A stretch of DNA of 64,000 nt from an uncultured Rhodospirillaceae bacterium (GTDB lineage: Bacteria > Pseudomonadota > Alphaproteobacteria > GCA-2731375): contig CAZVYX010000027.1 in NCBI GenBank assembly GCA_964631725.1, positions 1,624-65,623 of the forward strand, written 5' to 3'. Shown one piece after another: positions 780 through 60,849 of this stretch (positions are counted from its first letter, which is position 1; every line of letters begins with the position of its first letter). The position numbers were made by a program, and so were the translations under genes. A model generated the notes under the pieces. The model was not told the DNA's origin. It saw only the letters and a program-made list of their open reading frames with translations, and did no database searches.

Positions 780-1685
780 CTACAGCAGCTTTTTCAAGGC
801 CCTGGCAATAGCCTTTTGTTGCCGGACGGAGGCGGCCGGCATGGGCGCCCTGGGCAGGCCGCCGGGCACGCCCTGCTCGGACAGGGCGAATTTCACCGCC
901 GCCGGCAGGTTGTCGTCGATCATCGCGTTCCACAACCGCAAAAGCTGTTCATGCAGGCGCCGGGCGGCGGCATGCTCGCCGGCCTGTACCAGATCCCAGA
1001 GCCTGACCTCCGCCGCCGGCGCCGCTGTCAGAATGGCCGCGATGGCGCCGTGGGCCCCCAGGGCAAAGGACGGATACATCAGGGCATCCACCGCCGTCAT
1101 GATCCTCGATCCACTTGGCGCGCCCAGAAGCAAATCGGCCAGCAGCTTCATATCGCCGGCGCTCTGCTTCACGCCGACAACCTGGGGCACCTCCTTCAGG
1201 ATGCGGATCAGCAGGGCCGGGGACAGATAGCTCCAGGGAATGACGTTGTAGATCAGAATAGGAATTTTCGTGGCTTTTCCGACGGTGCGGAAATGCTCCA
1301 GCATATGGTTGTCATCGGGCCGGAAGAGATAATGCACCGGGGTGATTTGCAGCGCGGCGGGGCCCAGGTCGGCCACCGCCTCGGCCCGCTCAATCGCCTG
1401 CTGCGTGGAATCGACGATAATGCCGGCGACTACCGGTACCCGGCCCTTGGCCTCGGCCATGGCAACGCGCACCAGACGGGTCGCCTCCTTGGTTGAAAGG
1501 GTATGCCCTTCCCCGGTGCTGCCCCCGACCGCCAGGCCATGCACGCCGGCGCCGATCAGGAAATTCACCTGTTTTCGGAAAGCGGTCTCGTCGACCTCAC
1601 CCTTGCGGGTAAAGGGCGTGGTCATGGGCGCGATGATGCCGGTCAGATCCTGAACGGCGAAGCGGGTGGGTTTCTTGGCGGCCAT
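780..1685 (-). CDS. dihydrodipicolinate synthase (DapA/NAL) family lyase
   Basis: 301 aa with family-typical motifs (GVHGLAVGGSTGE, K-containing TIM barrel). Confidence 0.8.
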   Translation of the reverse strand: MAAKKPTRFAVQDLTGIIAPMTTPFTRKGEVDETAFRKQVNFLIGAGVHGLAVGGSTGEGHTLSTKEATRLVRVAMAEAKGRVPVVAGIIVDSTQQAIERAEAVADLGPAALQITPVHYLFRPDDNHMLEHFRTVGKATKIPILIYNVIPWSYLSPALLIRILKEVPQVVGVKQSAGDMKLLADLLLGAPSGSRIMTAVDALMYPSFALGAHGAIAAILTAAPAAEVRLWDLVQAGEHAAARRLHEQLLRLWNAMIDDNLPAAVKFALSEQGVPGGLPRAPMPAASVRQQKAIARALKKLL

Positions 1686-1719
1686 TCGTTTACTCCAAGG
1701 CTAAGTTCGAGATTTTATT

Positions 1720-2151
1720 CTAAGTGACCAAAAAATGAGCTGACGCGGTGGCGAACAATTTGTTGCGGTCCTTCTGCCAGGCCTGGGCCCGCACATTGGC
1801 GACACGGCGGCCCTGTTTGGTGACGATGCCGGTGGCGAAACTGTCCGCCGGCCTGCCGGGACGCAGATATTCGACCGTAATGTTGATGATTTTCGGTAGC
1901 CGCGGCGTATCCATGGCGCCAATCAGCGAGATCATCGCCGCGCTTTCCAGCAACGCCCCGGTGACGCCGCCATGCAGGGCAGGCAACATCGGATTGCCGA
2001 TCAACATATCCTGAAACGGCATCACCGTGATCAACTCGTCGCCCTGCTGCTCAACGCGCAGGCCGAGCCAGCGGAAATAGGGCACGGCGTCCACCAGCGG
2101 GCGCAGATCGCCGCTCTGGCGCGCCTCCGCTATGCCCTTGGGAATATTCAA
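1720..2151 (-). CDS. PaaI-family hotdog thioesterase
   Basis: 143 aa hotdog-fold motif (MLPALHGGVTGALLESAAMISLI). Confidence 0.7.
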   Translation of the reverse strand: MNIPKGIAEARQSGDLRPLVDAVPYFRWLGLRVEQQGDELITVMPFQDMLIGNPMLPALHGGVTGALLESAAMISLIGAMDTPRLPKIINITVEYLRPGRPADSFATGIVTKQGRRVANVRAQAWQKDRNKLFATASAHFLVT

Positions 2152-2612
2152 GCCGGCTTCGCCTTTGATTTCGCGGGTCTATCGGATTTCCCCGGTCGCG
2201 TTAGCATGAAAGAGCCCGTGGCATGGGCAATCGGATCATCCACGTCGCCCTGATAGGCGATGGCGCGGGTAAATGCGATATTGCGTGTCATCTTGTAGCA
2301 GTGGGCATGGGCGAAAATGTCCTGGCGCGGCGCCGCCGGCTTCAGATAGTCGATGCGCAGATCCAGGGTCGCTGTCATCGTCGCGGAACTCATCAACGGC
2401 ATGATACACATGCCGCTCAAGCTATCCAGCAGCACCGTTACGATACCGCCGTGTATGACGCCGCTGTCCGGATCGCCGACAAATTCCGGGCGATGGGGCA
2501 CCTTGGCGACGGCGCCGGTGTCATCAATCGAGATCAAATCCAGGCCAACCGCCGACATGTGCGGGATGGCGCTGATCATCAACTGCCGGACGTTTTCAAA
2601 ATCAATTTCCAT
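2148..2612 (-). CDS. PaaI-family hotdog thioesterase (second, tandem)
   Basis: Family core starts at MEIDFENVRQLM... (ATG at 2612). The longer 2810 start is probably spurious. Overlaps the downstream thioesterase by ATGA. Confidence 0.65.
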   Translation of the reverse strand: MEIDFENVRQLMISAIPHMSAVGLDLISIDDTGAVAKVPHRPEFVGDPDSGVIHGGIVTVLLDSLSGMCIMPLMSSATMTATLDLRIDYLKPAAPRQDIFAHAHCYKMTRNIAFTRAIAYQGDVDDPIAHATGSFMLTRPGKSDRPAKSKAKPA

Positions 2613-2800
2613 GCTGGGCAGACAATGCGTGCTTGCCCCCGTGCTGTCAAACTTTGCCCTATCAAACACGGACGGCGAATTGCCGGGCAGTATGCCGCTA
2701 TATGCACTGGCGGCGGCGGAAAAACGGTCGTATAAAATGCGCCATGTGGAACAGCACGGTTTGTATTCGGGCCGGTGGGTTTGAACCGGGCGCGGAGCCA

Positions 2801-3814
2801 ATGATGGCACGGCGGGTCTTGCGCCTTGGTGCGCTGATTTTCGGCTGCATCTTGTTGCTGGGCATGGCCGCCGCCCGGGCCGGTGACGGCGGTTACTTCC
2901 GTATCGCCACCGGCGCCACGGACGGCACCTACTTTCCCATCGGCTCGTTGATCGCCTCGGCCATATCCAACCCTCCAGGCTCCCGCGATTGCGACGACGG
3001 CGGCTCGTGCGGCGTGCCCGGCCTGATCGCCGTTGGCCAGGCCAGCAAGGGCTCGGTCCAGAATGTCGCCTTGATCGCGGGCGGCACGGTGGAATCCGGC
3101 CTCGGCCAGGCCGATGTCGCCTATATGGCCTATTTCGGCCTGGGGCCCTTCAAGGGCGCGGCGCAGTTCGACGGCCTGCGGGTCGTCGCCACCCTGTTCC
3201 CCGAGCTGGTGCAACTGGCGGTGCGCAAGCACAGCGGCATCTATGCGGTCGAAGATCTGCGTGACAGGCGTGTCTCTTTGGGCGTCGAAGGTTCGGGCAC
3301 GGCGGTGGACGCGGATGTCATAATGGCGGCCCATGGCCTGGCGGCGGGCAGCTACAAGGCGATGCATCTGGACCTTGGTGAATCGGCGGACCGCCTGCGC
3401 CTGGGCAAGCTGGATGCCTTTTTCATTATCGGCGGCGCGCCGGTGCCCGCCATGGTCGATCTGGCGGAGCAGACCAATATCACCCTTTTGCCGATCCACG
3501 GTGCGGCGGCAACGCGGCTGCGGCGGGAGTATCCCTTTTTTGCTCCGGCGACCCTGCCCACGGGCGTCTACCGCAACGTCGACGAAACCAAGACCCTGAG
3601 CGTTGGCGCGCAATGGCTGGTGTCGGACCGCCTGGATGCGAAGCTGGTTTATGAGATGACCCGCGCCCTGTGGCATCCATCGACCCGGCGGGTGCTGGAT
3701 AACGGCCATCCCGGCGGCCGCCTGATCCAATTGAAGAGCGCCCTGGACAGCCTGGGCATTCCCCTGCACGAGGGTGCGAGGCGCTACTACAAGGAAGTCG
3801 GCGCCCTACCCTGA
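2801..3814 (+). CDS. TAXI-family TRAP transporter solute-binding protein (orphan, no fused permease nearby)
   Basis: Signal peptide MMARRVLRLGALIFGCILLLGMAAARA, then a TAXI-like body (YFRIATGATDGTYFPIGSLIA...IIGGAPVPAMVDL). Confidence 0.7.
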   Translation: MMARRVLRLGALIFGCILLLGMAAARAGDGGYFRIATGATDGTYFPIGSLIASAISNPPGSRDCDDGGSCGVPGLIAVGQASKGSVQNVALIAGGTVESGLGQADVAYMAYFGLGPFKGAAQFDGLRVVATLFPELVQLAVRKHSGIYAVEDLRDRRVSLGVEGSGTAVDADVIMAAHGLAAGSYKAMHLDLGESADRLRLGKLDAFFIIGGAPVPAMVDLAEQTNITLLPIHGAAATRLRREYPFFAPATLPTGVYRNVDETKTLSVGAQWLVSDRLDAKLVYEMTRALWHPSTRRVLDNGHPGGRLIQLKSALDSLGIPLHEGARRYYKEVGALP

Positions 3815-3957
3815 TCGGTGCTATATCTCGACACCGGCATCAGCCAAGCGCGAAGCGGCCATGATGACAGGCTCATGTCATTGATTATCAAGCGATATGG
3901 GGGCTTCGCACCGTTCCACGCTTTGCTGTACAAGGATAGGGCTGAAGCCTGACTGTA

Positions 3958-5370
3958 ATGGAGCCTACCGTGACCGCCAATATTGAAGCCAATCTCGATC
4001 CCGCCGCCATCCCCATCTGGCCCGTTGCCAGTGCCGATCTGGCCGCCTGGCAGGCGGACCGGCCCGGCGCCATGACGGCGTGGTGTCAAAGCAGCGGCTT
4101 TACGGCGGAGGCCGGCAAGTACGTCTTGTTGCCGGGCGAGTCCGGCGATCTGGCCGGCGTTCTGCTGGGCTTGGGCGAGGGTGGAGAGCAGGCCCGCGAC
4201 TACTGGGCCTTCGGCACCCTGGCCAAGGGTCTGCCGGCGGGAGATTATCGGATCGACGGTGAATTGACGCCGGACCAGGCCGATCACGCGGCCCTGGCCT
4301 GGGCCCAGGCCGGCTACCGTTTCGATCGCTATCAAGGCAAGGATAAGGAGGCGGCCGAGGCGATGGCCCGGCTGTGTCTGCCGGAAAATGCCGACGCCAA
4401 GGCCTTGGCCGGTGCGGTCAAGGGTGGTTTTCTGGCCCGGGATTTGATCAATACGCCGGCCTCCGACATGGGGCCGGGCGAGTTGGCGGATGCGGCCCTG
4501 GCCCTGGCGGAGGAATTCGGCGGCACCGGGACAGTTATCGTCGGCGATGATCTGTTGGCCGCCAATTACCCGGCGATCCACGCGGTGGGCCGGGCCTCGG
4601 CGCGGGCGCCCCGGCTGATCGATCTGCGCTGGGGTCCAGCGGATGCACCGCGCCTGACTTTGGTCGGCAAGGGGGTTTGTTTCGATACTGGCGGCCTGGA
4701 TCTGAAACCGGCCGCCGGCATGCTGAAGATGAAAAAGGACATGGGCGGGGCGGCGACGGTGCTAGGGCTGGCGGCCATGATCATGACGGCGGAGTTGCCC
4801 CTATCCCTGCGCGTCCTGATCCCGGCGGTGGAAAATGCCGTCAGCGGCAATGCCTACCGGCCCGGCGATGTGATCGATACCCGCAAGGGCCTGACGGTGG
4901 AAGTCGGCAACACGGATGCCGAAGGCCGGATCGTGTTATGCGACGCCCTGGCCGAGGCGGATGCGGATGATCCTGATCTGATCATCGATATCGCGACCCT
5001 GACCGGCGCGGCGCGGGTTGCCCTGGGTCCGGATCTGCCGGCAATCTTCACCGGCAGTGACGAACTGGCGGCGGCGTTGCAGCAGGCCGGCGAGGAACTG
5101 GATGATCCGACCTGGCGTCTGCCCCTCTTCGCTCCCTACGCCGAACGCCTGAAGAGCAAGGTCGCCGACTACAACAATGTCTCGGAAGGCCCCTTCGCCG
5201 GCGCCATAACGGCCGCCTTGTTCATGCAGGCCTTTGTCAGCGATCCGAGCCGGTGGCTGCATATGGATAGCTACGGCTGGAACGACAAGGATCGCCCGGG
5301 CCGGCCCGCGGGGGGCGAAGGCCTGGCGATGCGGGCCCTGTTTGCGGTGATCGGGCGGCGTTTCGGATAG
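3958..5370 (+). CDS. pepA: M17 leucyl aminopeptidase family
   Basis: 470 aa with the NTDAEGR and GKGVCFDTGG motifs. Confidence 0.85.
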   Translation: MEPTVTANIEANLDPAAIPIWPVASADLAAWQADRPGAMTAWCQSSGFTAEAGKYVLLPGESGDLAGVLLGLGEGGEQARDYWAFGTLAKGLPAGDYRIDGELTPDQADHAALAWAQAGYRFDRYQGKDKEAAEAMARLCLPENADAKALAGAVKGGFLARDLINTPASDMGPGELADAALALAEEFGGTGTVIVGDDLLAANYPAIHAVGRASARAPRLIDLRWGPADAPRLTLVGKGVCFDTGGLDLKPAAGMLKMKKDMGGAATVLGLAAMIMTAELPLSLRVLIPAVENAVSGNAYRPGDVIDTRKGLTVEVGNTDAEGRIVLCDALAEADADDPDLIIDIATLTGAARVALGPDLPAIFTGSDELAAALQQAGEELDDPTWRLPLFAPYAERLKSKVADYNNVSEGPFAGAITAALFMQAFVSDPSRWLHMDSYGWNDKDRPGRPAGGEGLAMRALFAVIGRRFG

Positions 5371-9364: not shown

Positions 9365-10104
9365 TCGTGGTAGAAAATCGCCGGCGGCGGGTTCGGGGAC
9401 ATGTTCTCGCTTTCCCAATCCCACAGGATGGGCGTGCGGTCGGGATGTGCGGCCCGCAAGGCGCGCAGGGCGATCATCGGTTCGTAGATCCCGTAAAGAC
9501 GGCGCAGTTCTCCGACCGCATCGAATTTCATGTCGGCCCGTAGATCAAGCAGTGGAATCTCAGGCAGTTCGGGGGTGCCGATGACTTTGACCGCCGCGCC
9601 GCGCTCGCTGAAATGACGGCCATTGGCGGCCTGTTGGCCACCGGCATCGCGGCCTGCTTCCAGGGCCGAGATCAGGCGCGATGCCAGGGGCCCCTCGGCG
9701 GAATTCTCGAACCCCTCAACCATTGCCGCTACGACTTCGGGGCCTGCTAGAACATTGCCGAAGGCGAGGCAGTCCCGACCATGTTGCTCGCCCGCCCAGG
9801 GCTGGTTCGCCTGACCGGTTCGGGCAATGACCGCGCCATCACGGCGCATGATGGCAATTTGCCGGTATTCCACATGATCGTCGGCGGCCGCCACACTGGC
9901 CAAGGCATTTTCGAGCGAGCGGCCCTCGTCCAAGGCGCGGACACCGGCAATGGCGGCGCGGGGGTTTCCCTTCGCCTGCACGACGACAATATCGCCGCCA
10001 TAACCATAGCAAGGTGAAATGCCTCCGACACCCATGGTCACCGACGTCAGGGCCAGGCCGATTTGTCCGGTCTTCTGACAATGGCCAAGAATTGAGAATG
10101 TCAT
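9361..10104 (-). CDS. DUF1028 Ntn-hydrolase-like protein
   Basis: Begins MTFSILGHC (Thr2 nucleophile signature). 247 aa. Confidence 0.7.
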   Translation of the reverse strand: MTFSILGHCQKTGQIGLALTSVTMGVGGISPCYGYGGDIVVVQAKGNPRAAIAGVRALDEGRSLENALASVAAADDHVEYRQIAIMRRDGAVIARTGQANQPWAGEQHGRDCLAFGNVLAGPEVVAAMVEGFENSAEGPLASRLISALEAGRDAGGQQAANGRHFSERGAAVKVIGTPELPEIPLLDLRADMKFDAVGELRRLYGIYEPMIALRALRAAHPDRTPILWDWESENMSPNPPPAIFYHD

Positions 10105-10175
10105 TTTTCACTGCTCCGATGACAAGTTGTTGCCGCCGGGCCGGGTGGCGTCCGGCCCGCAAGGCTTATCAGCCA

Positions 10176-10859
10176 TTAGGCGGTTGGTTCCGTCTGCCGC
10201 CAGACATCGTCCCGGGGCATATTGGGATTGCCGGGGCGTGTGTCGTAGTAGGGAATGAGCGGCTTGTAATGTTCGTAGAGGCGGCGCAGTTCGCCCACCG
10301 GTTCGTCATGCAGATCGGCGCGCAGATCGATCCAGGCATAGCTGCGTTTGTTCACCACCTTCAGGGCCGAGGAAAATTCGCCGCCCACCTGGCCGCCGGC
10401 ATCACGGCCCGCTTCCAGACATTGCATCAACCGATCGCCAAGGTCCCCGCCCTTCGTTTGCTCCCAGACTTCCTCCATCGCGGTCACCGTTGCCTCGCCC
10501 GTCAGACGGTTGCCCAGGGAGACAAAATCCTGCTTCGCGACATGGCCCTTCCAATCCTCGCTGTCCTGGCCGGTCCAGGCGGCGGTGCGGCCTTCCTGGT
10601 CGACCACCGCGACCTGACGCCATTCGCGGTGCGGATCGTTATCCGACAGCTCCCGCAGCACCTTGTCGGCGCCGTATCCCATGGACAACAGATCAAGGCC
10701 GAGGGGCCCGAAGCGGGGATCGCCGTTGGCCTGCACTACCAGCGCGCCCACGCCCGGTTTCAGGAACGGGCATTTCGCGCCGATGGCGATGGGACGGGTG
10801 GCGATGGCGATGCCGAACATCCCGGTATCGGGGCAGCGGGCGACAACGGAATAAGTCAT
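10176..10859 (-). CDS. DUF1028 Ntn-hydrolase-like protein (tandem paralog)
   Basis: Begins MTYSVVARC from ATG at 10859. Colinear with the upstream paralog (EAGRDAGGQ and GELRRLY motifs shared). Confidence 0.7.
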   Translation of the reverse strand: MTYSVVARCPDTGMFGIAIATRPIAIGAKCPFLKPGVGALVVQANGDPRFGPLGLDLLSMGYGADKVLRELSDNDPHREWRQVAVVDQEGRTAAWTGQDSEDWKGHVAKQDFVSLGNRLTGEATVTAMEEVWEQTKGGDLGDRLMQCLEAGRDAGGQVGGEFSSALKVVNKRSYAWIDLRADLHDEPVGELRRLYEHYKPLIPYYDTRPGNPNMPRDDVWRQTEPTA

Positions 10860-11827
10860 GAAACATCCTCCAATTCCGGAATAACCCACAATGGCGCCTC
10901 GCCCCGGTTGACCCGCTGGACGTTGTCAAAGGCATTGCGCACCCGCGCCTTGTTGCTTTCGAAGGTCGGGCCGGCCATGTGCGGCGTCAGAACGACATTG
11001 TCCAGGGCCAGCAGCGGGTTGTCGGGCGCGGGAGGTTCCTGGTCAAAGACATCCAGGCCGGCGCCGGCGATGCGGTCGGCGGCCAGGGCATCGTGCAACG
11101 CGACCTCGTCAATGACCGGTCCGCGCGAGGTATTGACCACCATGGCGGTGGGTTTCATCAGCGCCAGTTCGGCCGCGCCGATCATGTGACGGGTCGAGGC
11201 GTTCAGGGGGACATGCAGCGAGATCAGATCGGATTCCGCCAGCAGTTCCCGCAGCAGGCGGAAACGGACGCCAAGGGCATCTTCCTCCGCCTCGGTAAGG
11301 CGCGCGATATCGTAGTAGATCACCGCCATGCCAAAGGCCTGGGCCAGCCGCGCGGTCTTCTTGCCGATGGCGCCCAGGCCGACAATGCCCAAGGTGCGGT
11401 TGCGCAGTTCATGCAGCGCCAGCACATCATTGCCCCGCCAGCGGCCCGCCGCCACGTCGCCGTGCTGGCGCACCAGTTGCCGGGAAACCGCCAGCATCAG
11501 CAACAGGGCATGCTCCGAAACGGCGACCGAGTTGGCGCCGCCGTTATTTGATATCGGCACCCCGGCCTTGCGCGCGGCGGCGATATCGGCCCGGTCATAA
11601 CCGGCGCTGAGCAACTGTATCAGGCGCAGATTGGGCGCCGTGGCATAAAGCTCGTCATCCACCAGCATATCGACGAAGCCGACCAGATATTCCGCCGTTG
11701 CCAACGCCCCCTGGTACTCGGCACTGCGCGCCTCGGTGATGATCAGATCATAACCGCTCGGCGCCAATTCCCGCGCGAATGCCGCCGCCGCCGGAAACTG
11801 CGTTACAAATACGATTTTCGAGCTCAT
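10856..11827 (-). CDS. D-isomer-specific 2-hydroxyacid dehydrogenase
   Basis: GIVGLGAIG NAD-binding motif; catalytic R/E/H region. Start MSSKIVFVT at 11827. Confidence 0.8.
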   Translation of the reverse strand: MSSKIVFVTQFPAAAAFARELAPSGYDLIITEARSAEYQGALATAEYLVGFVDMLVDDELYATAPNLRLIQLLSAGYDRADIAAARKAGVPISNNGGANSVAVSEHALLLMLAVSRQLVRQHGDVAAGRWRGNDVLALHELRNRTLGIVGLGAIGKKTARLAQAFGMAVIYYDIARLTEAEEDALGVRFRLLRELLAESDLISLHVPLNASTRHMIGAAELALMKPTAMVVNTSRGPVIDEVALHDALAADRIAGAGLDVFDQEPPAPDNPLLALDNVVLTPHMAGPTFESNKARVRNAFDNVQRVNRGEAPLWVIPELEDVS

Positions 11828-11962
11828 GGCCGGTCCTTCTTCTTTCGAAATCTGTTGCACGACAGCACAAAGCATCGGCAAATTGAAAGCAACCTATTTT
11901 CCGCTGCGGCGGGAATCCTAAGCCGGGCCTTGCCGCAAAACGCCACAAAGAGGAATAAAGCC

Positions 11963-12337
11963 ATGAACGAGCAGGAAACATTCGCATTATTGGATGACAT
12001 CGGCGCCGCCTTCGCGCGCCATGATATTGCCGCCATGGTCGGTTATTTCGCCAAGGACGGCGTCTTTGTGAATGCCATCGGGCCCGATCCGTTCGGCACC
12101 CGCTATCAGGGGCACGAACAGATCCGGGGCTATTTCGACAATCTTTTTGCCAGCACGGAAGAGGTGCAATGGGAAAAGCAGGACGCCCGGGTTGTCGGCG
12201 ACAAGGCCTACACCGAATGGCACCGCCGGGCGACCTTGAAAAGCGGCGAGAAACAGGACTGGCTCGGCGTCGATATCTATACCTTCGGCGAAGGCGAAAT
12301 CCTGAAAAAGGACACCTACATCAAGGTCGTTGGCTAG
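11963..12337 (+). CDS. SnoaL-like / NTF2-fold protein
   Basis: 124 aa. RBS aggaataaag precedes the ATG at 11963. Confidence 0.55.
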   Translation: MNEQETFALLDDIGAAFARHDIAAMVGYFAKDGVFVNAIGPDPFGTRYQGHEQIRGYFDNLFASTEEVQWEKQDARVVGDKAYTEWHRRATLKSGEKQDWLGVDIYTFGEGEILKKDTYIKVVG

Positions 12338-13755
12338 GGCGGTGAGAGGTTAAACACCCTCCGGGCGTTGTCTCCGCCAACACTTGCGGCAAGGTCTTCG
12401 GGTAGCTGATCGATGATCGCCCAGGTTGACTCGAACGAGGCCGCCAGCTTGGCCCTCTCGGGACCGGGACCGACGAATTCGTCCGCGCCCAGCATGATGC
12501 GGTTCGGGAAATCCTTGATCAACTGCAGCCAGTCCGGCTTGATGCGCCTGTCCAAATCGACGATCCGATTGGGGAAGGCACGGCCATCCCGGCTTTGCAG
12601 TTGTTGCGGCACGCGCAGCGAGAGGTACAGATTGGCGTGGGCCCGCAACAGACGACGCATCAGTGACGGCGTCATTTGGCCGGTGTTGTCCCAGCCGATA
12701 TGCTCCCAGACGATGCGGGCCTTGCGGTTGTGCCGCAGCAGAGCTTCCAGATCGGGGATCGTCGGCTCCAGGGTATGGGGATTCTTGCCGCAACGCCGGC
12801 GCAGGTTTTCGGGCGTGGCGGCGCGGGTCTCAATGGCCTCCATATGCAGATCGATTGCGACGTTCCGTTGCGCCGCGATATCGGCCAGTTCCAGGAACAG
12901 GGGATGATTTGGCGCGACATATTCGAACTTGTGCTTGGGGTTCATGCACAGGTGGTAGGAGATCATCTCGCCAAAGCCCACGGCGCCATCATCCAATAAT
13001 TGCTCCGCCGTCTTTCGAAAGCGCCGTTTCAAATCTTCCGTGACCGCGTCGGCGGGCCATTCCTGAAGCATCTCGCCCAGCAGCGCGCCGCCAGCCAGCA
13101 GGCGGAGCCGACCGGGGTGGCCCCGCACCGCTTCGCGCATCAGGCGGTAGGACTGCATCCGGCCCTCCCGCGATGACGGCACCACCACGATCAGCGCGGT
13201 TTTCAGGCGCTGTTGGTCCATGCGGGCAACAAGGTTGTTCGCGGCGGCGGCCAGGTTGGCCGCCTCGTCCATGGGTTCGCGGCGGCCCTGTTCACGTCCG
13301 CCACCCTGGTTGCCGTGGGTCTTGTCGAGGCCAACCTGGTGCAGGTGTATATGAGTATCGACAAACCGTAACGGTCCTTGCCGGGCCATGGCCGGGGCGG
13401 CGGTATCACTGGCGGAACGCCGCCCGCCCTGTTGCCGGCCTGATTGACTTTGCGCGCCGGTCCGGCCACCGCCCCGCGGGCCGCCCCGCCGCACCTCCTG
13501 CGGTGTCAGATAACCGCTGCCATCGGCGTCCAGACGATCGAAAACCTGGGCCGGTCCGGGAAATTCGCGCTTTGACAACCGGCCATCGCCGTCTCGGTCG
13601 TTCCGCTGAAAGACCGGCGGGACATTCTGTGCCGACACTTCGAACTCGGCAGTGGTAAATGGCATCCCGGGGACGAAAACAGCCACCAGGGTGGCCCCGC
13701 CAAGCATCAGGTGGGTTAGGCATCGTATCGCAAAGGCAGACTTGAACAAGGCCAT
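12334..13755 (-). CDS. secreted EF-hand (x2) + amidohydrolase-2 (PF04909-like TIM-barrel metal hydrolase) fusion
   Basis: Signal peptide MALFKSAFAIRCLTHLMLGGATLVAVFV. Two canonical 12-residue EF loops (DRDGDGRLSKRE, DADGSGYLTPQE). G/R-rich linker, then FVDTHIHLH metal-binding motif. Confidence 0.65.
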   Translation of the reverse strand: MALFKSAFAIRCLTHLMLGGATLVAVFVPGMPFTTAEFEVSAQNVPPVFQRNDRDGDGRLSKREFPGPAQVFDRLDADGSGYLTPQEVRRGGPRGGGRTGAQSQSGRQQGGRRSASDTAAPAMARQGPLRFVDTHIHLHQVGLDKTHGNQGGGREQGRREPMDEAANLAAAANNLVARMDQQRLKTALIVVVPSSREGRMQSYRLMREAVRGHPGRLRLLAGGALLGEMLQEWPADAVTEDLKRRFRKTAEQLLDDGAVGFGEMISYHLCMNPKHKFEYVAPNHPLFLELADIAAQRNVAIDLHMEAIETRAATPENLRRRCGKNPHTLEPTIPDLEALLRHNRKARIVWEHIGWDNTGQMTPSLMRRLLRAHANLYLSLRVPQQLQSRDGRAFPNRIVDLDRRIKPDWLQLIKDFPNRIMLGADEFVGPGPERAKLAASFESTWAIIDQLPEDLAASVGGDNARRVFNLSPP

Positions 13756-13894
13756 GTATCCGACTCCTTGATCACCGATCATAGCCGATCTGGCGCAAAT
13801 GATGGAACTACTCTGCCGTCTTCGGATGGCCTTGGGAATTTCGGCGACTGTTGTTAAGGTTGCCTACGGCTTATCACATCAAAGGGTGTAACCC

Positions 13895-14239
13895 ATGGTC
13901 ATCACGATCGTTCAAATTCCGCGCAGTGCCGCCAAGCCCGACAAGGCGGCCTCCATCGAAGGCGCCAAGAAAAGCGCGCCCATATACCGCGAAGTCAAAG
14001 GTCTGCTGCGTAAGGACTTCCTCAATGGCGAGGACTGCGGCGGCGGCGTCTATCTTTGGGAATCCCGGGAAGCGGCGGAAGCCTGGTTCAATGACGACTG
14101 GTGGGGCTGGATCGAAGAGCGTTTTGGCGCCCGGCCGACCCTGACCTATTTCGACCATTATCTGACGGTCGACAATATGGTCGGCGAAATCCGCGTCGAT
14201 GGCCAGCCCATCGAGATCGCGGAAGAGGCGGCGGAGTAA
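13895..14239 (+). CDS. YdhR-like putative monooxygenase (dimeric alpha/beta barrel)
   Basis: 114-aa ORF with a clean ATG. Weak family resemblance only. Confidence 0.45.
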   Translation: MVITIVQIPRSAAKPDKAASIEGAKKSAPIYREVKGLLRKDFLNGEDCGGGVYLWESREAAEAWFNDDWWGWIEERFGARPTLTYFDHYLTVDNMVGEIRVDGQPIEIAEEAAE

Positions 14240-14277
14240 GCCCCCGCCCCGCCCATTCCCGCCCCGCCTAGAGCATG

Positions 14278-30614: not shown

Positions 30615-30711
30615 CTAGCGCATGTCGGGTTTAACCAAACCCGAACCCATGCGCAAAAACTTTTGGAATAGAGCAACTTATCCGCATTCAATTGAATGCG
30701 GGTTGCTCTAG
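30615..30711 (-). repeat. MITE-like repeat subtype B, copy B2 (inverted relative to B1), CTAG both ends
   Basis: ctagcgcatgtcgggtttaaccaaacccgaacccatgcgc ... agagcaacttatccgcattcaattgaatgcgggttgctctag. Confidence 0.8.
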
Positions 30712-30789
30712 TCAAATCCGAAGGCCGCAACATACACCGCCCGTCGGCAGAGGCAAGGGAGAGGCTTGTCCGCCCCGTCCTGCGGTCGC

Positions 30790-31896
30790 TCAACTCTGGA
30801 AATCGTTGATGGACAGCTCAGCCCGCATGTCGCGGGTTGCCTCTTCCTTGTAGTCTTCCAGAGGAATACCGGCGCCGTCGGCGATCTTCACGACGGCGCT
30901 GAACGAGGCGATGGTGGCGCAAGCATCGACAAAGGCAGCGTCGCCCATATTCTCGCGCACCGTCCGCCGCGCCGCCGCCATTTCAGCCGCGTCGCCGCCA
31001 TGCACGGCCCCTACCAGATCCATCAGGATTTCGCCGTGGGGGATACTGCTCACCGCCGCCTCGTCCGTCATGATGGCGGACAGATCGTACTGATCACCAG
31101 AACTTTTGCCGCTCTCACGGAGCAGGGCCGAATGGCTGGTGGTTCAATAATAGCAGCCGTTCAGGGCCGAGGTTCGCCCCGCGATCAGCTCGATCTGGGC
31201 ATGGCTGATGGCGCGGAAATCATGCTCGAAATCCCTGATCTCGTGATCCTTCATATACAGCTCGACATCGAGATCGAAGAAGTTGAAGACTTCCTGGGGC
31301 ACCAGACTGACGCCGCGATGAATGTTCTTGTCGCCATGCACGGGGTAGGGATTGGGATCATCCGGACCGACATCTTCCGGTGCCAGGGTGGCGACATAGG
31401 CCAGATTGCGCTTGGCGCCCATCGGCCGTTGCCGGCTGGGTTCGCCGGGCATGGGCGCCGGCAGCTCGCGTGGCGGCAGGCCCAGGCCCTGGTGCAGTTT
31501 GTCCAGCCCCGTCAGCACCGCGATGACGCCGATAATCTCGACATATTCGGTTTCTTCCAACGCCGGCATTGCACTGCCTTCGACCAGGGAAAGTATCCAG
31601 CGCTCGGTGATCCGGCCCGCATCGGTGACAATTCTATGGATCGCCTCGATCGCCGCCGGCGGCAGGTCGGAGGAGCTGTCGTGTTCGCCCGCCACGGTAT
31701 AGGGCGACAATGCCGCCTGGCGCTCGCGGCACAAACCGCAGTCTCCCGCGCGCCGCGCCTCCGCCGCGATGGCCAGGCGCTCGGCCCCGGTCCACCAGGT
31801 GCCGGGCCGGGCCAGACGGTCCCAGGCGACTTCCACCTCCCGGGCCAGACTTTCACGTATGGGCAGCATTTCGCCCGCGACTTCAATTTCGGTCAT
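30790..31896 (-). CDS. AhpD-like / carboxymuconolactone-decarboxylase-family candidate selenoprotein. In-frame TGA (31144..31146) read as Sec within C-x-x-U-x-x-x-H.
   Basis: Track ORFs 31144..31896 and 30790..31071 share one frame, separated only by TGA. Joined they read ...ALNGCYY-U-TTSHSALL..., matching the AhpD Cys-x-x-Cys-x3-His motif with Sec at the resolving position. Confidence 0.65.
31093..31143 (-). promoter_or_regulatory. candidate bacterial SECIS element immediately 3' of the UGA
   Basis: mRNA: UGA-ac-CACCAG-ccauucggcc-CUGCUC-cguga-GAGCGG-caaaaguu-CUGGUG. Outer 6-bp stem, inner 6-bp stem (one G-U pair), 5-nt apical loop containing GU. Apex is ~30 nt from the UGA. Confidence 0.4.
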
Positions 31897-31907
31897 ATTG
31901 AACCTCC

Positions 31908-32669
31908 CTAAATCACTTCCGCCGGGGCCTGGGGCACGGTCTTCCAGAAATCCGCATCATGGCCGTAGAATATCCGGGCGCCCGCGGTCTGCAGGGCGCG
32001 GATACGCTTCAGGCTTTCCAGCATTTCCTCCCTGTCATGCACCACCTTTGGCAGGTGCAGCCTTTCCAATGTCTGGCGCAGATAACAGGCATCCCCCGCC
32101 AGCAAGACATCGCCGCCGCCCAGACGGACCTTGAGGGACTGATGCCCCGGCGTATGGCCGTACGTTGGAATGCAGACCACGCTGCCGTCGCCGAACAGGT
32201 CATGTTCGCCATCCACCAAATTCAGATCATGGCCGTGATCATAGTCCTCCAGGGCGAAGCCGTTGGATTTCATCAGGTCCGGGTCGTGACCGGCCAGCCA
32301 TTCCCGTTTCTGCACGACCAATTGCGCATTCTTGACCTGATAATTGCCACCCGCGTGGTCGAAATGCAGATGGGAATTGACCAGATAGCGGACCTTTTCA
32401 ACATCCACGTCACAGCGTTCCAGGCGGGCGCCCAGCTCCTCGCCAACTTTGAATTCCGGGCTGAAATGCTTGGTGATGACCTGGGCGCGTTTTTTTACCG
32501 GATTCTGAATATCCGTGTGCAGGCCGCTGTCGAACAGCACCTGGCCCTTGGGATGGTCGATCAGATAGACCGGCACGGGCAGGCGGATTTCGCCATCTTC
32601 CCCGTCCAGGAAACTATGCAGGGGCATGGTCAACCAACCGCAGGTCATGGCGTACAGGCGAACGGACAT
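31908..32669 (-). CDS. MBL-fold N-acyl-homoserine-lactonase-like hydrolase (AttM/AiiB type)
   Basis: MSVRLYAMTCGWL..., HLHFDHAGG zinc motif. The stop is 11 bp upstream of the selenoprotein start. Confidence 0.75.
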   Translation of the reverse strand: MSVRLYAMTCGWLTMPLHSFLDGEDGEIRLPVPVYLIDHPKGQVLFDSGLHTDIQNPVKKRAQVITKHFSPEFKVGEELGARLERCDVDVEKVRYLVNSHLHFDHAGGNYQVKNAQLVVQKREWLAGHDPDLMKSNGFALEDYDHGHDLNLVDGEHDLFGDGSVVCIPTYGHTPGHQSLKVRLGGGDVLLAGDACYLRQTLERLHLPKVVHDREEMLESLKRIRALQTAGARIFYGHDADFWKTVPQAPAEVI

Positions 32670-32799
32670 TTCAACTCCCAAAAAACTACAGCTGAAGAAT
32701 TGCGGCTGAATGTAGCAGGGGCCAACAATTACGAGACTCGAACAATGTTTGCTTTTATGCTCCGCCGCAAGTCAATTACAAGATATAGGAGACGCCAAA

Positions 32800-33549
32800 A
32801 TGCGTGGATTAAAGGGCAAGAACGTAATTCTCACCGGCGGTGCCAGCGGCATCGGGCAGGCGATCAGCCTGCGTCTGGGCGAAGAAGGCTGCAACGTGGG
32901 GATCTTCGACCTGAACGGTGATGGCGCCAATGCGACGGCCGAAAAGATCCGCACCGCGGGCGGTACCGCCAACGGCTATGCCGTCGATGTCAGCGACTAT
33001 GACGCGGTTGCCAGCGCCGTTGCCACCTTCGAAAGCGATTGCGGCCCGGTGGACGGCCTGGTCAACAACGCCGGCTGGGACAAGTCCATGCCCTTCCTGG
33101 ATACGGATCTGGAGCTTTGGCACAAGGTCGTGGCCATCAACATGTATGGCCCGTTGAATCTATGCCACGTAATCCTGAAAGGCATGGCGGAGCGCGGCAG
33201 CGGCCGGGTGGTCAATATTTCTTCCGATGCGGGCCGGGTCGGGTCCTCCGGCGAGGCGGTGTATGCCGCCTGCAAGGGCGGTCTGATCGCCTTTTCCAAG
33301 ACCATGAGCCGGGAATTGGCGCGCAAGAACATCACGCTGAACACTGTCTGCCCCGGCCCGACCAACACGCCGCTGCTGGCCGAGCAGGGTCCAAAGCTGG
33401 TTGCCGCCCTGGAACGTGCCGTACCCATGCGCCGGGTCGCCGAGCCGGAGGATTATCCGGGTCTGGTATCGTTCTTCCTGTCCGACGATGCCTCCTACAT
33501 CACCGGCCAGACGATTTCCGTCTCGGGCGGCTTGACGATGCATGGGTGA
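32800..33549 (+). CDS. SDR oxidoreductase (BadH-like 2-hydroxycyclohexanecarboxyl-CoA dehydrogenase candidate)
   Basis: LTGGASGIGQA...NNAG...YAACK. RBS AGGAG precedes the ATG at 32800. Confidence 0.75.
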   Translation: MRGLKGKNVILTGGASGIGQAISLRLGEEGCNVGIFDLNGDGANATAEKIRTAGGTANGYAVDVSDYDAVASAVATFESDCGPVDGLVNNAGWDKSMPFLDTDLELWHKVVAINMYGPLNLCHVILKGMAERGSGRVVNISSDAGRVGSSGEAVYAACKGGLIAFSKTMSRELARKNITLNTVCPGPTNTPLLAEQGPKLVAALERAVPMRRVAEPEDYPGLVSFFLSDDASYITGQTISVSGGLTMHG

Positions 33550-33626
33550 TTTTTCTTAGTTGGCTGAACCACCCGCTCCCCTGGAGTAGGCGGCCAGGCG
33601 AACGCAGCGAATAGCGAGTAATTTTC

Positions 33627-34418
33627 ATGGACTTCAAGGATCTGATCTATACCGAGAAGGACGGCGTTGCGACGATTATGATCAATCGTCCGAAGGTCTA
33701 TAACGCTTTCAGCAATCAAACGGCGGAAGAGTTGATCAAGGCCTTCAACATGGCCGGCTGGAACCCCGACATCGGCGTTGTTGTATTCACTGGTGTTGGC
33801 GACAAAGCCTTTTGCACCGGCGGCGACCAGTCGGCGGACTCCCACGAGGGCAGTTACGGCGGCCGGGGCACCACGGGCATGCCGGTGGAGGAATTGCACA
33901 CCATTATCCGCGATATCCCCAAGCCGGTGATCGCCCGCGTCAATGGCTATGCCATCGGCGGCGGTCACGTCTTCCACGTCTTGTGCGATCTGACCATTGC
34001 CTCGGACAATGCCATCTTCGGCCAGGTCGGGCCCGCCATGGGCTCGGTCGATCCGGGCTTTGGCACGGCTTATCTGGCCCGCCTGGTGGGCGAGAAAAAG
34101 GCGCGGGAGATCTGGTACATGTGCCGCCGTTATTCGGCCCAGGAAGCCCTGGAAATGGGTTTGGTCAACGCGGTGGTGCCGTTCGACAAGCTGGACGAGG
34201 AGGTGGATGCCTGGTGCCAGGAAATCATGGCCAAAAGCCCCACCGCCCTGGCCATCGCCAAGCGCAGCTTCAATGCCGATACCGAGCATATCCGCGGCCT
34301 GGGCGTGTTGGGTTTCCAGGCCCTGAAGGGTTACTACGAAACGGAAGAATCCAAGGAAGGTGTCAATGCCTTCCGGGAAAAGCGCAAGCCAGATTTCCGC
34401 AAGTATCAACCCCGCTGA
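33627..34418 (+). CDS. MenB/BadI-family crotonase (naphthoate synthase / 2-ketocyclohexanecarboxyl-CoA hydrolase type)
   Basis: Close motif match to MenB (VNGYAIGGGHV, DNAIFGQ.GP..GS.D.G.G, KKAREIWY, PDF.K). Confidence 0.8.
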   Translation: MDFKDLIYTEKDGVATIMINRPKVYNAFSNQTAEELIKAFNMAGWNPDIGVVVFTGVGDKAFCTGGDQSADSHEGSYGGRGTTGMPVEELHTIIRDIPKPVIARVNGYAIGGGHVFHVLCDLTIASDNAIFGQVGPAMGSVDPGFGTAYLARLVGEKKAREIWYMCRRYSAQEALEMGLVNAVVPFDKLDEEVDAWCQEIMAKSPTALAIAKRSFNADTEHIRGLGVLGFQALKGYYETEESKEGVNAFREKRKPDFRKYQPR

Positions 34419-59587: not shown

Positions 59588-60466
59588 TCAGCGCCTATCG
59601 CGCACGAATGGGAATATCCTGGTGAAATCGGCGCCGGGCTCGGCGGCGGTGAAGCGTTGCCAGATCGGCAACAGGTTGGTGCTGATGGTATTGGCGGTAC
59701 CGGCGTTGGCGACATTCTCCACATAGAGGGAGATATCCTTCAGGTACAGGGTATTGAGGAACTCCGCATCATAGGTTTCCGTCAGCACCCGGTTGGGAAA
59801 TTTGTCCGATGTCGCCGTGTTCTGCCCCGACGAGACATTCAGTACATCCAGCATAGTAGACATTTCCAGGCCCTGGGTCAGACCAAAGGCAATCGCTTCC
59901 GAGGTCGCCGTCAGCGCCAGGCCGGAAAGAAAATTGTTCAGCAACTTCATGGCCTGGGCCTGGCCCGGCTCCCCGCCCACATGAAAGGGCCGTTTCGACA
60001 TGGCTTGGAGCACCGGCAGCAGCGCCTCGAACTCAGCCTTCGGGCCGGCGAACATCAGGGCAATGGTGCCCGCCGCGGCACCCGCGATACCGCCCGAAAC
60101 CGGCGCATCCATATAGGCCAGGTCGGCGCCGGCCAGCCTGCCATGCACCGCCTTGGCGGCGGCGACGCCGATGGTCGAGGTATCGACGATGGTCGAAACG
60201 GCGCGCTGGTTGCTCTCGATGATCTCCTCCGCCACGGCGGCCGAGATCTCGCCATTGGGCAGGCTCAGGATAATGACATCCGCCGCCGCCGCCACGGCGC
60301 CGACCGAGGCGCCGATCGCCGCGCCTTCCGGTGCGCGCTCCTTGGTGCCGGCAACATCGAAACAAATCATCTCAAAACCGGCGGCGGCAACATTGGCGGC
60401 CATGCGGTTGCCCATGGCGCCGAGACCGATAAAGCCGACGACGGGCTGCTTCCCAGCCGTCATGCT
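59588..60466 (-). CDS. 3-hydroxyisobutyrate dehydrogenase / 2-hydroxy-3-oxopropionate reductase family (NAD-binding)
   Basis: Start MTAGKQPVVGFIGLGAMG at 60466. Confidence 0.75.
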   Translation of the reverse strand, partial: SMTAGKQPVVGFIGLGAMGNRMAANVAAAGFEMICFDVAGTKERAPEGAAIGASVGAVAAAADVIILSLPNGEISAAVAEEIIESNQRAVSTIVDTSTIGVAAAKAVHGRLAGADLAYMDAPVSGGIAGAAAGTIALMFAGPKAEFEALLPVLQAMSKRPFHVGGEPGQAQAMKLLNNFLSGLALTATSEAIAFGLTQGLEMSTMLDVLNVSSGQNTATSDKFPNRVLTETYDAEFLNTLYLKDISLYVENVANAGTANTISTNLLPIWQRFTAAEPGADFTRIFPFVRDRR

Positions 60467-60849
60467 CAGGTGCCTCCCTCGATATCGTCCAGCACCCGCC
60501 GGGCGATGCGGAAGGCCTCGACGCCTGCCGGCATGCCGCAATAGATGGCGATCTGTTCCAGCACGGTGCGCAATTCCTCCCTGCTACAGCCGTTATTGAT
60601 GGCGCCGCGAAAATGCAGTTCGAACTCCTGCGGCCGGTTCAGCGCCGCCAGCATGGCGATGTTGATCAGACTGCGGGTCTTTTTCTCCAAAGCCTCGTCG
60701 CCCCAGACGCCGCCCCAGGCAAATTCCGTTACCATCTCCTGAAAATGGCGGTTGAAGTCCGTGACATTGTTGATATTCCGGTTCACGTAGTCCTCGCCCA
60801 GAACCTCTTTTCTGATGCCCAGGCCTTTCTCGTACAGCGCCTCGTCCAT
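60466..60849 (-). CDS. carboxymuconolactone decarboxylase (PcaC-like CMD) family protein
   Basis: 127 aa from ATG at 60849. Contains the AINNGCSREEL motif. Confidence 0.7.
   Translation of the reverse strand: MDEALYEKGLGIRKEVLGEDYVNRNINNVTDFNRHFQEMVTEFAWGGVWGDEALEKKTRSLINIAMLAALNRPQEFELHFRGAINNGCSREELRTVLEQIAIYCGMPAGVEAFRIARRVLDDIEGGT

What the first reader, a model, noticed from the sequence alone, without database searches (positions are those of the whole stretch)
30790..31896. Candidate selenoprotein: AhpD/CMD-family gene with in-frame UGA at the C-x-x-[C/U]-x-x-x-H active-site position, plus a SECIS-like hairpin
Two adjacent minus-strand ORFs (31144..31896 and 30790..31071) are in the same frame. 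Only the TGA at 31144..31146 separates them. Reading through gives ...GRTSALNGCYY-U-TTSHSALL.... The AhpD/carboxymuconolactone-decarboxylase family has a conserved Cys-x-x-Cys-x-x-x-His catalytic motif. Here the TGA falls exactly at the second Cys, the spacing to His is exact, and the CMD-like sequence continues for 117 codons after it. A stem-loop with a GU-containing apical loop lies ~20-30 nt 3' of the UGA, where bacterial SECIS elements sit. AhpD-like Sec proteins have been reported in prokaryotic selenoproteomes (established knowledge). Standard gene callers would split or truncate this gene. It is probably co-transcribed with the upstream AHL-lactonase-like MBL hydrolase (11-bp gap). No selA/selB/selD/tRNA-Sec is in this window.
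Basis: partly seen in the sequence, partly recalled or inferred. Interest (0 to 1): 0.8.

Follow-up and report, generated by a model that had tools for sequence, protein, structure and literature searches.

The report
Known AhpD-related selenoprotein gene, mis-split
The two adjacent reading frames are one 368-codon gene whose internal UGA almost certainly encodes selenocysteine, but it belongs to an AhpD-related selenoprotein family first reported in 2005 and already curated by NCBI, so the call is correct and not new.

Summary
The minus-strand ORF 31144..31896 ends in TGA. The same frame stays open for 117 more codons to 30790, giving ...GCYY-U-TTSH....

The joined protein matches NCBIfam NF041238 'AhpD_rel_CFYUT, alkylhydroperoxidase-related (seleno)protein' over its full length (443 bits, cutoff 175). 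A 2026 review equates this family with 'hypothetical protein 1' of the 2005 Sargasso Sea selenoproteome.

Evidence that the UGA is decoded:
- All 73 copies examined (70 of the 72 genome-scan loci, two further related contigs and the window's own copy; Alpha-, Beta- and Gammaproteobacteria) carry TGA at this codon.
- dN/dS downstream of it is 0.12-0.15 against close relatives.
- More distant full-length homologs carry Cys at this position.
- Synonymous sites are frozen over a 6-bp hairpin with loop CGUG(A/C), 18 nt after the UGA.
- selA-selB-tRNA-Sec lie within 1-7 kb of the gene in four betaproteobacterial loci.

A model of a Cys homolog shows a Sestrin-like double AhpD fold.

Verdict: a real selenoprotein gene that gene callers split, in an already known family. 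Low novelty.

The parts
30790..31896 (-). Complete 368-codon gene for an AhpD-related selenoprotein (NF041238 family). ATG at 31896-31894, Sec-UGA at 31146-31144, terminal TGA at 30792-30790.
   Evidence: 443 bits, model positions 1-357 of 357; tblastn covers residues 1-368 in related genomes.
31144..31146 (-). In-frame UGA, predicted selenocysteine codon (U251).
   Evidence: TGA in 73 of 73 copies examined. Cys at this column in 17 full-length distant homologs.
31132..31191 (-). Active-site block E236-x11-C248-x-Y250-U251-x3-H255. It corresponds to the AhpD proton-relay residues.
   Evidence: All five positions are invariant in 71 of 71 family sequences. The relay residues in M. tuberculosis AhpD and PA0269 are taken from PMC3141380.
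31109..31125 (-). Conserved apical SECIS-like hairpin: CUGCUC / loop CGUGA / GAGCGG. It is embedded in codons L257-L258-R259-E260-S261-G262.
   Evidence: RNAalifold consensus. 430 of 432 cells are paired. Synonymous sites are frozen: Leu CTC 72/72, Arg CGT 72/72.
31095..31141 (-). Extended stem-loop in this lineage, with lower stem CCACCAG / CUGGUG around the conserved hairpin.
   Evidence: MFE fold -22.5 kcal/mol, z = -1.5. The lower stem is not conserved across the family.
31729..31740 (-). N-terminal-domain C53-G-L-C56 motif, a second conserved CxxC.
   Evidence: C53 and C56 are invariant in 69 of 69 sequences that have residues at this column. hhalign places it on C248-x-x-U251 (P = 0.047).
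31903..31908 (-). Shine-Dalgarno-like GGGAGG, 6 nt upstream of the ATG. It overlaps the last base of the MBL gene's TAG stop codon.
   Evidence: Read directly from the sequence.
31908..32681 (-). Upstream MBL-fold lactonase-like gene, 11 bp from the selenoprotein start. It may be co-transcribed, which is inference.
   Evidence: Best NCBIfam hit is AttM-family AHL lactonase at 167.6 bits, below the cutoff of 390. Synteny is kept only in the closest relatives L004-L008 and L011-L013.

Best explanation
Positions 30790-31896 on the minus strand hold one gene for a 368-residue selenoprotein of the NCBIfam NF041238 family (AhpD_rel_CFYUT, the 'hypothetical protein 1' of the Sargasso Sea selenoproteome).

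Decoding. During translation the UGA at 31146-31144 is read as selenocysteine. SelB carrying Sec-tRNA(Sec) is recruited by a SECIS hairpin: a 6-bp stem CUGCUC/GAGCGG with loop CGUGA that begins 18 nt after the UGA, inside the coding sequence. That the downstream part is translated in frame is shown here by selection and conservation. That the inserted residue is Sec is inferred from the Sec/Cys pairing, the hairpin and the linkage of the family to sel genes.

Protein. It is predicted to have two AhpD-like helical domains, a Sestrin-like arrangement. The C-terminal domain carries the full AhpD proton relay (E236, C248, Y250, U251, H255). Sec replaces the second Cys of the CxxC pair. I recall that this is the attacking nucleophile in M. 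tuberculosis AhpD, but I did not check that here. The N-terminal domain keeps a second invariant CxxC (C53, C56).

Likely function (inferred). It is a thiol/selenol-disulfide oxidoreductase that reduces a peroxiredoxin-type partner or a hydroperoxide or disulfide substrate through a transient selenenylsulfide with C248. The physiological substrate is unknown.
For: - Family assignment: NF041238 at E = 7.8e-133, 443 bits against a cutoff of 175, full length. [quoted passage not shown] The original description is in PMC1088965.
- UGA conservation: TGA in 73 of 73 copies examined from three proteobacterial classes.
- Translation downstream: dN/dS against L004-L008 is 0.12-0.15 after the TGA and 0.07-0.10 before it. 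Conservation starts at the first codon after the TGA, leaving no room for a separate start.
- Domain continuity: the CMD domain and the PDB AhpD-like matches (6k40, 3c1l) span the TGA, covering residues 227-346.
- Sec/Cys pair: 17 of the best 150 representatives are 339-418 aa with Cys at this column, and 105 end at C-x-x-stop.
- Hairpin: codons +8 to +10 each use a single codon within the majority residue and +7, +11 and +12 are near-fixed (89-94%), whereas upstream Leu and Arg codons show 1.5-2.2 bits of codon entropy. The stem is paired in 430 of 432 cells, and L035 has a G-C to A-U double change. The same GCUC-CGUGN-GAGC hairpin follows the UGA of two other candidate selenoprotein genes, in L003/L027 and in L046.
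- Linkage to Sec machinery: selA, selB and tRNA-Sec lie 1-7 kb from the gene in L046, L051, L066 and L068. In L051 two tRNA-Sec genes flank it.
- UGA as a normal stop: it is an ordinary stop elsewhere in the window, for example in the BadH- and BadI-like genes whose family alignments reach the end of the protein.
Against: - No selA, selB, selD or tRNA-Sec was found in the 64-kb window or in about 18 kb of flanking scaffold. The rest of the source genome could not be searched.
- No Rfam family matches the hairpin.
- Covariation support is minimal because the stem hardly varies. There is one double change in the 6-bp stem, and the shuffle controls are not exceeded convincingly.
- The single-sequence fold is only modestly better than shuffles (z = -1.5).
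- As far as I found, no member of the family has been shown biochemically to contain selenium.
- The fold was predicted for a Cys homolog with about 46% identity in the N-part, not for the window protein itself.
Confidence: 0.9

Rival explanations
1. The gene is a pseudogene, or the TGA is a sequencing error. Under this reading the TGA is a nonsense mutation in a former Cys codon and the downstream frame is decaying.
For: Public gene calls all stop at this codon. No Sec machinery was seen in the window.
Against: - TGA is present in 73 of 73 independent copies down to about 52% identity.
- dN/dS downstream is 0.12-0.15.
- In 69 of the 71 loci where it could be read, the downstream frame stays open for 113-141 codons.
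- The window sequence is 100% identical to independent metagenome contigs over the roughly 24 kb at the window's two ends, and the N-part ORF recurs 100% identical, with its TGA, on a further contig.
Confidence: 0.02
2. There are two separate polypeptides. UGA terminates a 250-residue protein, and a 93-residue protein is started independently at the ATG at 31071.
For: An ATG exists at 31071, and gene callers annotate a 93-aa ORF in many contigs.
Against: - The strongest conservation (TTSH.ALLRESG) lies in the 24 codons between the TGA and that ATG.
- The catalytic His255 and half of the CMD domain would be lost.
- Cys homologs are continuous single chains.
- The ATG is not conserved as a start, since the C-part fragments called in databases vary from 66 to 149 aa.
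Confidence: 0.04
3. UGA is read through as a standard amino acid (Trp, Gly or Cys). This could happen by genome-wide reassignment, by a UCA-anticodon tRNA-Cys type system, or by near-cognate suppression, without selenium.
For: The inserted residue was not identified, and Sec machinery was not found in the accessible 82 kb.
Against: - UGA ends about 17 of 57 crude gene calls in the window, including genes whose family alignments reach the C-terminus. The code is therefore standard.
- A hairpin conserved at the nucleotide level at SECIS distance has no role in simple read-through.
- The family gene lies next to selA-selB-tRNA-Sec(UCA) in four loci.
Confidence: 0.03

Closest known systems
NCBIfam NF041238 'AhpD_rel_CFYUT, alkylhydroperoxidase-related (seleno)protein', the same as 'hypothetical protein 1' of Zhang, Fomenko & Gladyshev 2005 (Sargasso Sea selenoproteome)
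   Same: - Full-length match far above the curated cutoff.
- CxxU motif, a SECIS-like hairpin after the UGA, and Cys homologs.
- Marine proteobacterial origin.
- The review table links the two names.
   Different: Nothing essential. The window has C-Y-Y-U-T rather than C-F-Y-U-T, and both variants are common in the family.
AhpD-like 1 and 2 selenoproteins of marine metagenomes (COG2128/TIGR01926; PF02627), CxxU
   Same: CMD/AhpD core with Sec at the second position of CxxC, abundant in ocean samples.
   Different: TIGR01926 scores 34 bits against a cutoff of 81.8. This family carries an extra N-terminal domain of about 220 residues with its own CxxC. I recall the AhpD-like 1 and 2 proteins as single-domain, about 180 aa, but I did not check that here.
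Mycobacterium tuberculosis AhpD (PDB 1knc, 1gu9) and P. aeruginosa PA0269
   Different: Those proteins use Cys rather than Sec. AhpD works with AhpC, and I recall the lipoamide system as its reductant. No such partner was identified here. Sequence similarity is marginal (TIGR00777 16.6 bits).
Human Sestrin-2 (PDB 5cuf)
   Different: 11% identity, eukaryotic, no Sec. This is a resemblance of architecture only, and it was obtained for a predicted model of a Cys homolog.
E. coli fdhF-type bacterial SECIS
   Same: A stem-loop inside the coding region just 3' of the UGA, with a small apical loop that contains G-U. These features are as described in PMC1088965.
   Different: The loop G-U is at +29/+30 counted from the U of the UGA. 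I recall +23/+24 for fdhF. The sequence is unrelated, and there is no Rfam model hit.

Membership tests
NCBIfam NF041238 (AhpD_rel_CFYUT selenoprotein) | HMM score above the curated cutoff over the full model | tested here: met
   443.1 bits against a cutoff of 175. Residues 13-368 match model positions 1-357 of 357.
NCBIfam NF041238 (AhpD_rel_CFYUT selenoprotein) | C-[F/Y]-Y-U-T motif with TGA at the U position | tested here: met
   The window reads GCYY-TGA-TTSH. TGA is present in 73 of 73 copies examined.
Bacterial selenoprotein gene (general criteria) | Sec/Cys pair: homologs with Cys aligned to the UGA | tested here: met
   17 full-length representatives carry C-x-x-C-x-x-x-H at this site (16 of the 17 with the His).
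Bacterial selenoprotein gene (general criteria) | Sequence downstream of the UGA is translated in frame, shown by purifying selection and conservation starting at codon +1 | tested here: met
   dN/dS is 0.12-0.15 against L004-L008. T252, S254 and H255 are invariant.
Bacterial selenoprotein gene (general criteria) | SECIS stem-loop immediately 3' of the UGA with a small G-containing apical loop | tested here: met
   A 6-bp stem with loop CGUG(A/C), 18 nt after the UGA, is paired in 430 of 432 cells. Synonymous sites are frozen.
Bacterial selenoprotein gene (general criteria) | Covariation support for the SECIS helix | tested here: inconclusive
   Only one double change in the 6-bp stem (L035), plus G-C/G-U and U-G/U-A alternation. 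The shuffle controls are reached in 24-58 of 500 shuffles.
Bacterial selenoprotein gene (general criteria) | selA, selB, selC and selD present in the same genome | not testable with these tools
   None were found in the window or in about 18 kb of flanking scaffold_67. Relatives L046, L051, L066 and L068 have selA-selB-tRNA-Sec beside the gene.
Bacterial selenoprotein gene (general criteria) | Selenium demonstrated in the protein by 75Se labelling or mass spectrometry | not testable with these tools
   This needs an experiment. I found no such report in the papers read.
AhpD/CMD superfamily (PF02627) | Pfam CMD domain above the gathering score | tested here: met
   26.8 bits against a cutoff of 23, residues 230-280. 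This is obtained only with the read-through protein.
AhpD/CMD superfamily (PF02627) | AhpD proton-relay residues (Glu, Cys, His/Tyr, Cys, His) | tested here: met
   E236, C248, Y250, U251 and H255 are invariant in 71 of 71 sequences. The reference residues come from PMC3141380.
AhpD/CMD superfamily (PF02627) | All-helical AhpD fold | tested here: met
AhpD proper (TIGR00777, AhpC-reducing alkylhydroperoxidase D) | Equivalog-level sequence match and an AhpC partner | tested here: not met
   TIGR00777 scores 16.6 bits against a cutoff of 191.95. None of the eight neighbouring genes annotated is AhpC-like. The protein is AhpD-related, not AhpD.
Sestrin-like double AhpD-fold proteins | Two AhpD-like domains in one chain | tested here: inconclusive

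The most novel reading that the evidence does not exclude
The NF041238 family may be a bacterial Sestrin-like enzyme with two AhpD domains. In this reading the invariant N-domain CxxC (C53, C56) serves as a built-in relay or resolving centre for the C-domain C248-x-x-U251 site. The family appears to be Sec-dependent in most lineages, with about six Sec forms for each Cys form among the 50%-identity cluster representatives listed. Its SECIS hairpin is frozen at the nucleotide level across Alpha-, Beta- and Gammaproteobacteria. It may have spread together with selA-selB-selC.
Probability: 0.3. Interest if true: 0.4.

Novelty: already known. Interest (0 to 1): 0.18.

Why it matters
- Annotation. 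Every homologous entry returned by the protein-collection searches splits this gene into a 245-250-aa 'hypothetical protein' and a fragment of about 93 aa. The catalytic domain is therefore lost from annotations. Reading it correctly marks this uncultured marine alphaproteobacterium as a probable selenocysteine user.
- Biology. The family's function is untested. The near-exclusive use of Sec, the invariant SECIS hairpin and the predicted Sestrin-like double AhpD fold make it a reasonable target for biochemical study.
- Novelty. The existence of the selenoprotein family itself is not new.

Tried and rejected
- Rfam scans, at gathering thresholds over the whole window and at E-value thresholds around the site, gave no SECIS or other credible hit.
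- A scan of the window for other ORF pairs separated by a TGA found only antisense artefacts and two genuinely separate genes.
- The hairpin motif does not recur downstream of another UGA in the window.
- The split molybdopterin oxidoreductase in L002 looked like a second selenoprotein, but it is interrupted by TAG, not TGA.
- The SelB-like hit in L026 is tuf/fusA of the str operon.
I used the N-part and a Cys homolog (P0216) instead.
- A first MSA misplaced the C-terminal fragments on the N-domain. It was rebuilt and checked.
- Walking off both ends of the window on scaffold_67 added about 18 kb (dnaN-recF-gyrB on one side) and no sel genes.
I do not treat it as a functional pairing of the family.

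Full report
**Observation**

On the minus strand an ORF runs from the ATG at 31896 to a TGA at 31146-31144 (250 codons). The same frame then continues without a stop for 117 codons to the TGA at 30792-30790. The read-through product is 368 residues and contains ...ALNGCYY-U-TTSHSALLRESG..., so the TGA occupies the second Cys of a C-x-x-C-x-x-x-H motif. The 93-aa ORF listed at 30790..31071 is only the part of this frame after an internal ATG. The upstream MBL-fold gene ends 11 bp before the start codon, and a GGGAGG lies 6 nt upstream of the ATG. The window contains no tRNA gene and no Rfam family at gathering score, and tblastn finds no match to E. coli SelA, SelB or SelD.

**What it is**

With Cys substituted at the TGA, the joined protein matches NCBIfam NF041238, 'AhpD_rel_CFYUT, alkylhydroperoxidase-related (seleno)protein'. 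This is an equivalog model. The match has E = 7.8e-133 and 443 bits against a curated cutoff of 175, and it covers the whole model. Pfam CMD (PF02627) is just above its gathering score on residues 230-280, which span the TGA.

By sequence, the closest solved structures are AhpD-like proteins: 6k40 from Deinococcus radiodurans and 3c1l (Mlr4105). They align over residues 227-346, again across the TGA.

[quoted passage not shown] That paper describes hypothetical protein 1 as a new selenoprotein family with a conserved CXXU motif, a SECIS-like stem-loop and Cys homologs. AhpD-like CxxU selenoproteins in general are among the most abundant marine selenoprotein families. The family is therefore already known and curated.

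**Is the UGA decoded?**

Several independent lines of evidence say it is.

1. *Database truncation.* The 120 best database homologs of the joined protein (63-100% identity) are all 237-287 aa and all end at C-x-x-stop. The 76 homologs of the C-terminal part are all fragments of 66-149 aa. Gene callers are splitting the gene everywhere.

2. *TGA conservation.* A scan of one genome per species returned 72 loci from Alphaproteobacteria (Rhodospirillaceae- and Hyphomicrobiaceae-like MAGs), Betaproteobacteria (Burkholderiales) and Gammaproteobacteria (Granulosicoccaceae, Chromatiales). tblastn matches ran through the stop to residue 364-368. The codon at the U position is TGA in 73 of the 73 copies in which the motif could be read: 70 of these 72 loci, the related contigs L002 and L003, and the window's own copy.

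3. *Selection downstream.* Against its closest relatives (L004-L008) the window gene has dN/dS of 0.12-0.15 downstream of the TGA and 0.07-0.10 upstream. Conservation begins at the very first codon after the TGA. T252, S254 and H255 are invariant, which leaves no room for an independent start.

4. *Cys homologs.* An exhaustive HMMER search with the N-terminal part against 50%-identity cluster representatives found 105 of the best 150 ending at C-x-x-stop. Another 17 were 339-418 aa long with Cys at the aligned position, for example GCFYCTTAHS and DCYYCTMNHS. This is the classical Sec/Cys pair. It also shows that Sec forms outnumber Cys forms about six to one.

5. *UGA as a stop elsewhere.* About 17 of 57 crude gene calls in the window end in TGA. 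These include the BadH- and BadI-like neighbours, whose family alignments reach the C-terminus. Genome-wide reassignment of UGA is therefore excluded.

**SECIS element**

In an ungapped alignment of UGA + 60 nt from 72 distinct sequences, RNAalifold predicts a single conserved helix. Columns 22-27 (CUGCUC) pair with columns 33-38 (GAGC[G/A]G), and the 5-nt loop is CGUG(A/C). In the window this helix lies at 31109-31125. The stem is paired in 430 of 432 cells. Variation consists of G-C/G-U and U-G/U-A alternation, plus one G-C to A-U double change in L035. Covariation statistics are therefore weak.

The stronger evidence is at synonymous sites. Codons +7 to +12 (Leu-Leu-Arg-Glu/Ala-Ser-Gly) are nearly fixed:
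- Leu +8 is CTC in 72 of 72 sequences.
- Arg +9 is CGT in 72 of 72.
- Ser +11 is AGC in 89%.
- Gly +12 is GGC in 94%.

Leu and Arg codons upstream of the UGA use 5-6 codons, with 1.5-2.2 bits of entropy. This is what an RNA element overlapping the codons should look like.

The same GCUC-CGUGN-GAGC hairpin also follows the in-frame UGA of two other candidate selenoprotein genes in related loci. One is a thioredoxin-like 'STW-U-PTC' ORF next to a DsbD-like gene in L003 and L027. The other is a paralogous AhpD-related gene in L046. That fits a shared SelB recognition motif. The lower stem seen in the window (CCACCAG/CUGGUG; MFE -22.5 kcal/mol, z = -1.5) is specific to this lineage.

**Sec machinery**

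In four betaproteobacterial loci (L046, L051, L066, L068), selA, selB and a tRNA-Sec(UCA) gene lie 1-7 kb from the family gene. In L051 two tRNA-Sec genes flank it directly. With 20-kb loci, fewer than one such coincidence would be expected among 72 loci (my estimate, which assumes genomes of about 4 Mb). The four may not be independent events.

For the window's own organism nothing can be said. The window is 100% identical, over the roughly 24 kb of overlap at its two ends, to positions 26544-90543 of a 128.5-kb marine metagenome scaffold (ENA ERZ23499127, scaffold_67). The additional 18 kb or so that I could read on either side carries dnaN-recF-gyrB and unrelated genes, but no sel genes. 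This is the main open point.

**How it probably works**

The five residues of the AhpD proton relay are Glu118, Cys130, His132, Cys133 and His137 in M. tuberculosis AhpD, and Glu36, Cys48, Tyr50, Cys51 and His55 in PA0269 (PMC3141380). They are matched with identical spacing by E236, C248, Y250, U251 and H255, and all five are invariant in 71 family sequences. Sec takes the place of the second Cys. I recall that this is the attacking nucleophile in AhpD, but I did not verify that here.

The roughly 220-residue N-terminal region carries its own invariant C53-x-x-C56. In a profile-profile comparison it aligns weakly (P = 0.047) with the C-terminal domain, with the two CxxC motifs in register.

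I infer a thiol/selenol-disulfide oxidoreductase. U251 would attack an oxidised partner or a hydroperoxide, and C248 would resolve the resulting selenenylsulfide. The N-domain CxxC may act as a relay. The substrate is unknown.

None of the eight neighbouring genes annotated with NCBIfam is an AhpC. The MBL lactonase-like neighbour (AttM-like, 167.6 bits, below the cutoff of 390) is syntenic only in the closest clade. I therefore do not regard it as a functional partner of the family.

**Rival explanations**

- *Pseudogene or sequencing error.* Excluded by the universal TGA and by the purifying selection downstream.
- *Two separately translated polypeptides.* Contradicted by three points: conservation is strongest between the TGA and the internal ATG, the catalytic His would be lost, and the Cys homologs are continuous chains.
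- *Read-through with a standard amino acid.* Not strictly excluded without proteomics. It does not explain the frozen hairpin or the linkage to the sel genes.

**Verdict**

The gene is an ordinary member of a selenoprotein family reported in 2005 and modelled in NCBIfam. The value of the finding is for annotation, since the gene is split in all of the homologous public gene calls that the searches returned. Several family-level observations are also worth noting: the dominance of Sec forms, the invariant SECIS hairpin, the Sestrin-like double AhpD fold and the occasional adjacency to selAB-selC. Novelty: already known. Interest is low.

Noticed in passing
L003 8343-8753 (TGA at 8493); L027 about 1100-1500: A thioredoxin-like ORF 'HYKSTW-U-PTCARQ' has an in-frame TGA (UxxC motif). 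It lies next to a DsbD_TM gene, about 1.5 kb upstream of the AhpD-related gene. It is followed after 38 nt by the same GCUC-CGUGC-GAGC hairpin. It is probably a second selenoprotein gene in these Hyphomicrobiaceae-like genomes.
   Followed up: partly
L046 about 4750-5230 (hairpin at 5045-5057): A paralogous AhpD-related gene ('...MHQCVY-U-TAAHSYMLRES') sits directly upstream of the family gene and has the same apical hairpin. selA, selB and tRNA-Sec lie just beyond it at 921-4227. This amounts to a small selenoprotein and Sec-machinery cluster.
   Followed up: partly
L051 9603-9696 and 11075-11168: Two tRNA-Sec(UCA) genes flank the AhpD-related selenoprotein gene (10001-11050). selB and selA follow at 11215-14164.
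   Followed up: no
window 30663-30716: Nested inverted repeats lie in the 224-nt intergenic region downstream of the gene. They include a perfect 20-bp palindrome, CCGCATTCAA/TTGAATGCGG, flanked by 15-nt arms. This could be a terminator, an operator or a repeat element. It was not examined further.
   Followed up: no
window, whole (crude gene call): Stop-codon usage appears to be TAG (about 32) > TGA (about 17) > TAA (about 8) among 57 GC3-filtered ORFs. This is unusual for a genome of 62% GC. The gene call is rough and includes some antisense ORFs.
   Followed up: no
window 32749-34418 (+): Two genes lie divergent from the MBL gene. One is BadH-like (2-hydroxycyclohexanecarboxyl-CoA dehydrogenase, 335 bits against a cutoff of 431). 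The other is BadI-like (2-ketocyclohexanecarboxyl-CoA hydrolase, 442 bits against 468). They suggest an alicyclic-acid or CoA-ester degradation cluster, and they are conserved at 90-99% in the closest relatives.
   Followed up: partly
window 60466-60849 (-) and 61746-62561 (+): A second, small CMD-family protein (127 aa, PcaC-like, no CxxC) lies near another MBL-fold gene and SDR genes. This is a second MBL/CMD neighbourhood in the same window.
   Followed up: no
L078 11068-15899 (scaffold_67, beyond window position 1): dnaN, recF and gyrB lie within about 6 kb of the window's left end. The window therefore sits close to the probable chromosomal replication origin region.
   Followed up: no
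L002 13243-15543: A molybdopterin oxidoreductase gene is split by an in-frame TAG at 14251-14253. This is not a Sec codon. It may be a pseudogene, an assembly error or something else.
   Followed up: partly
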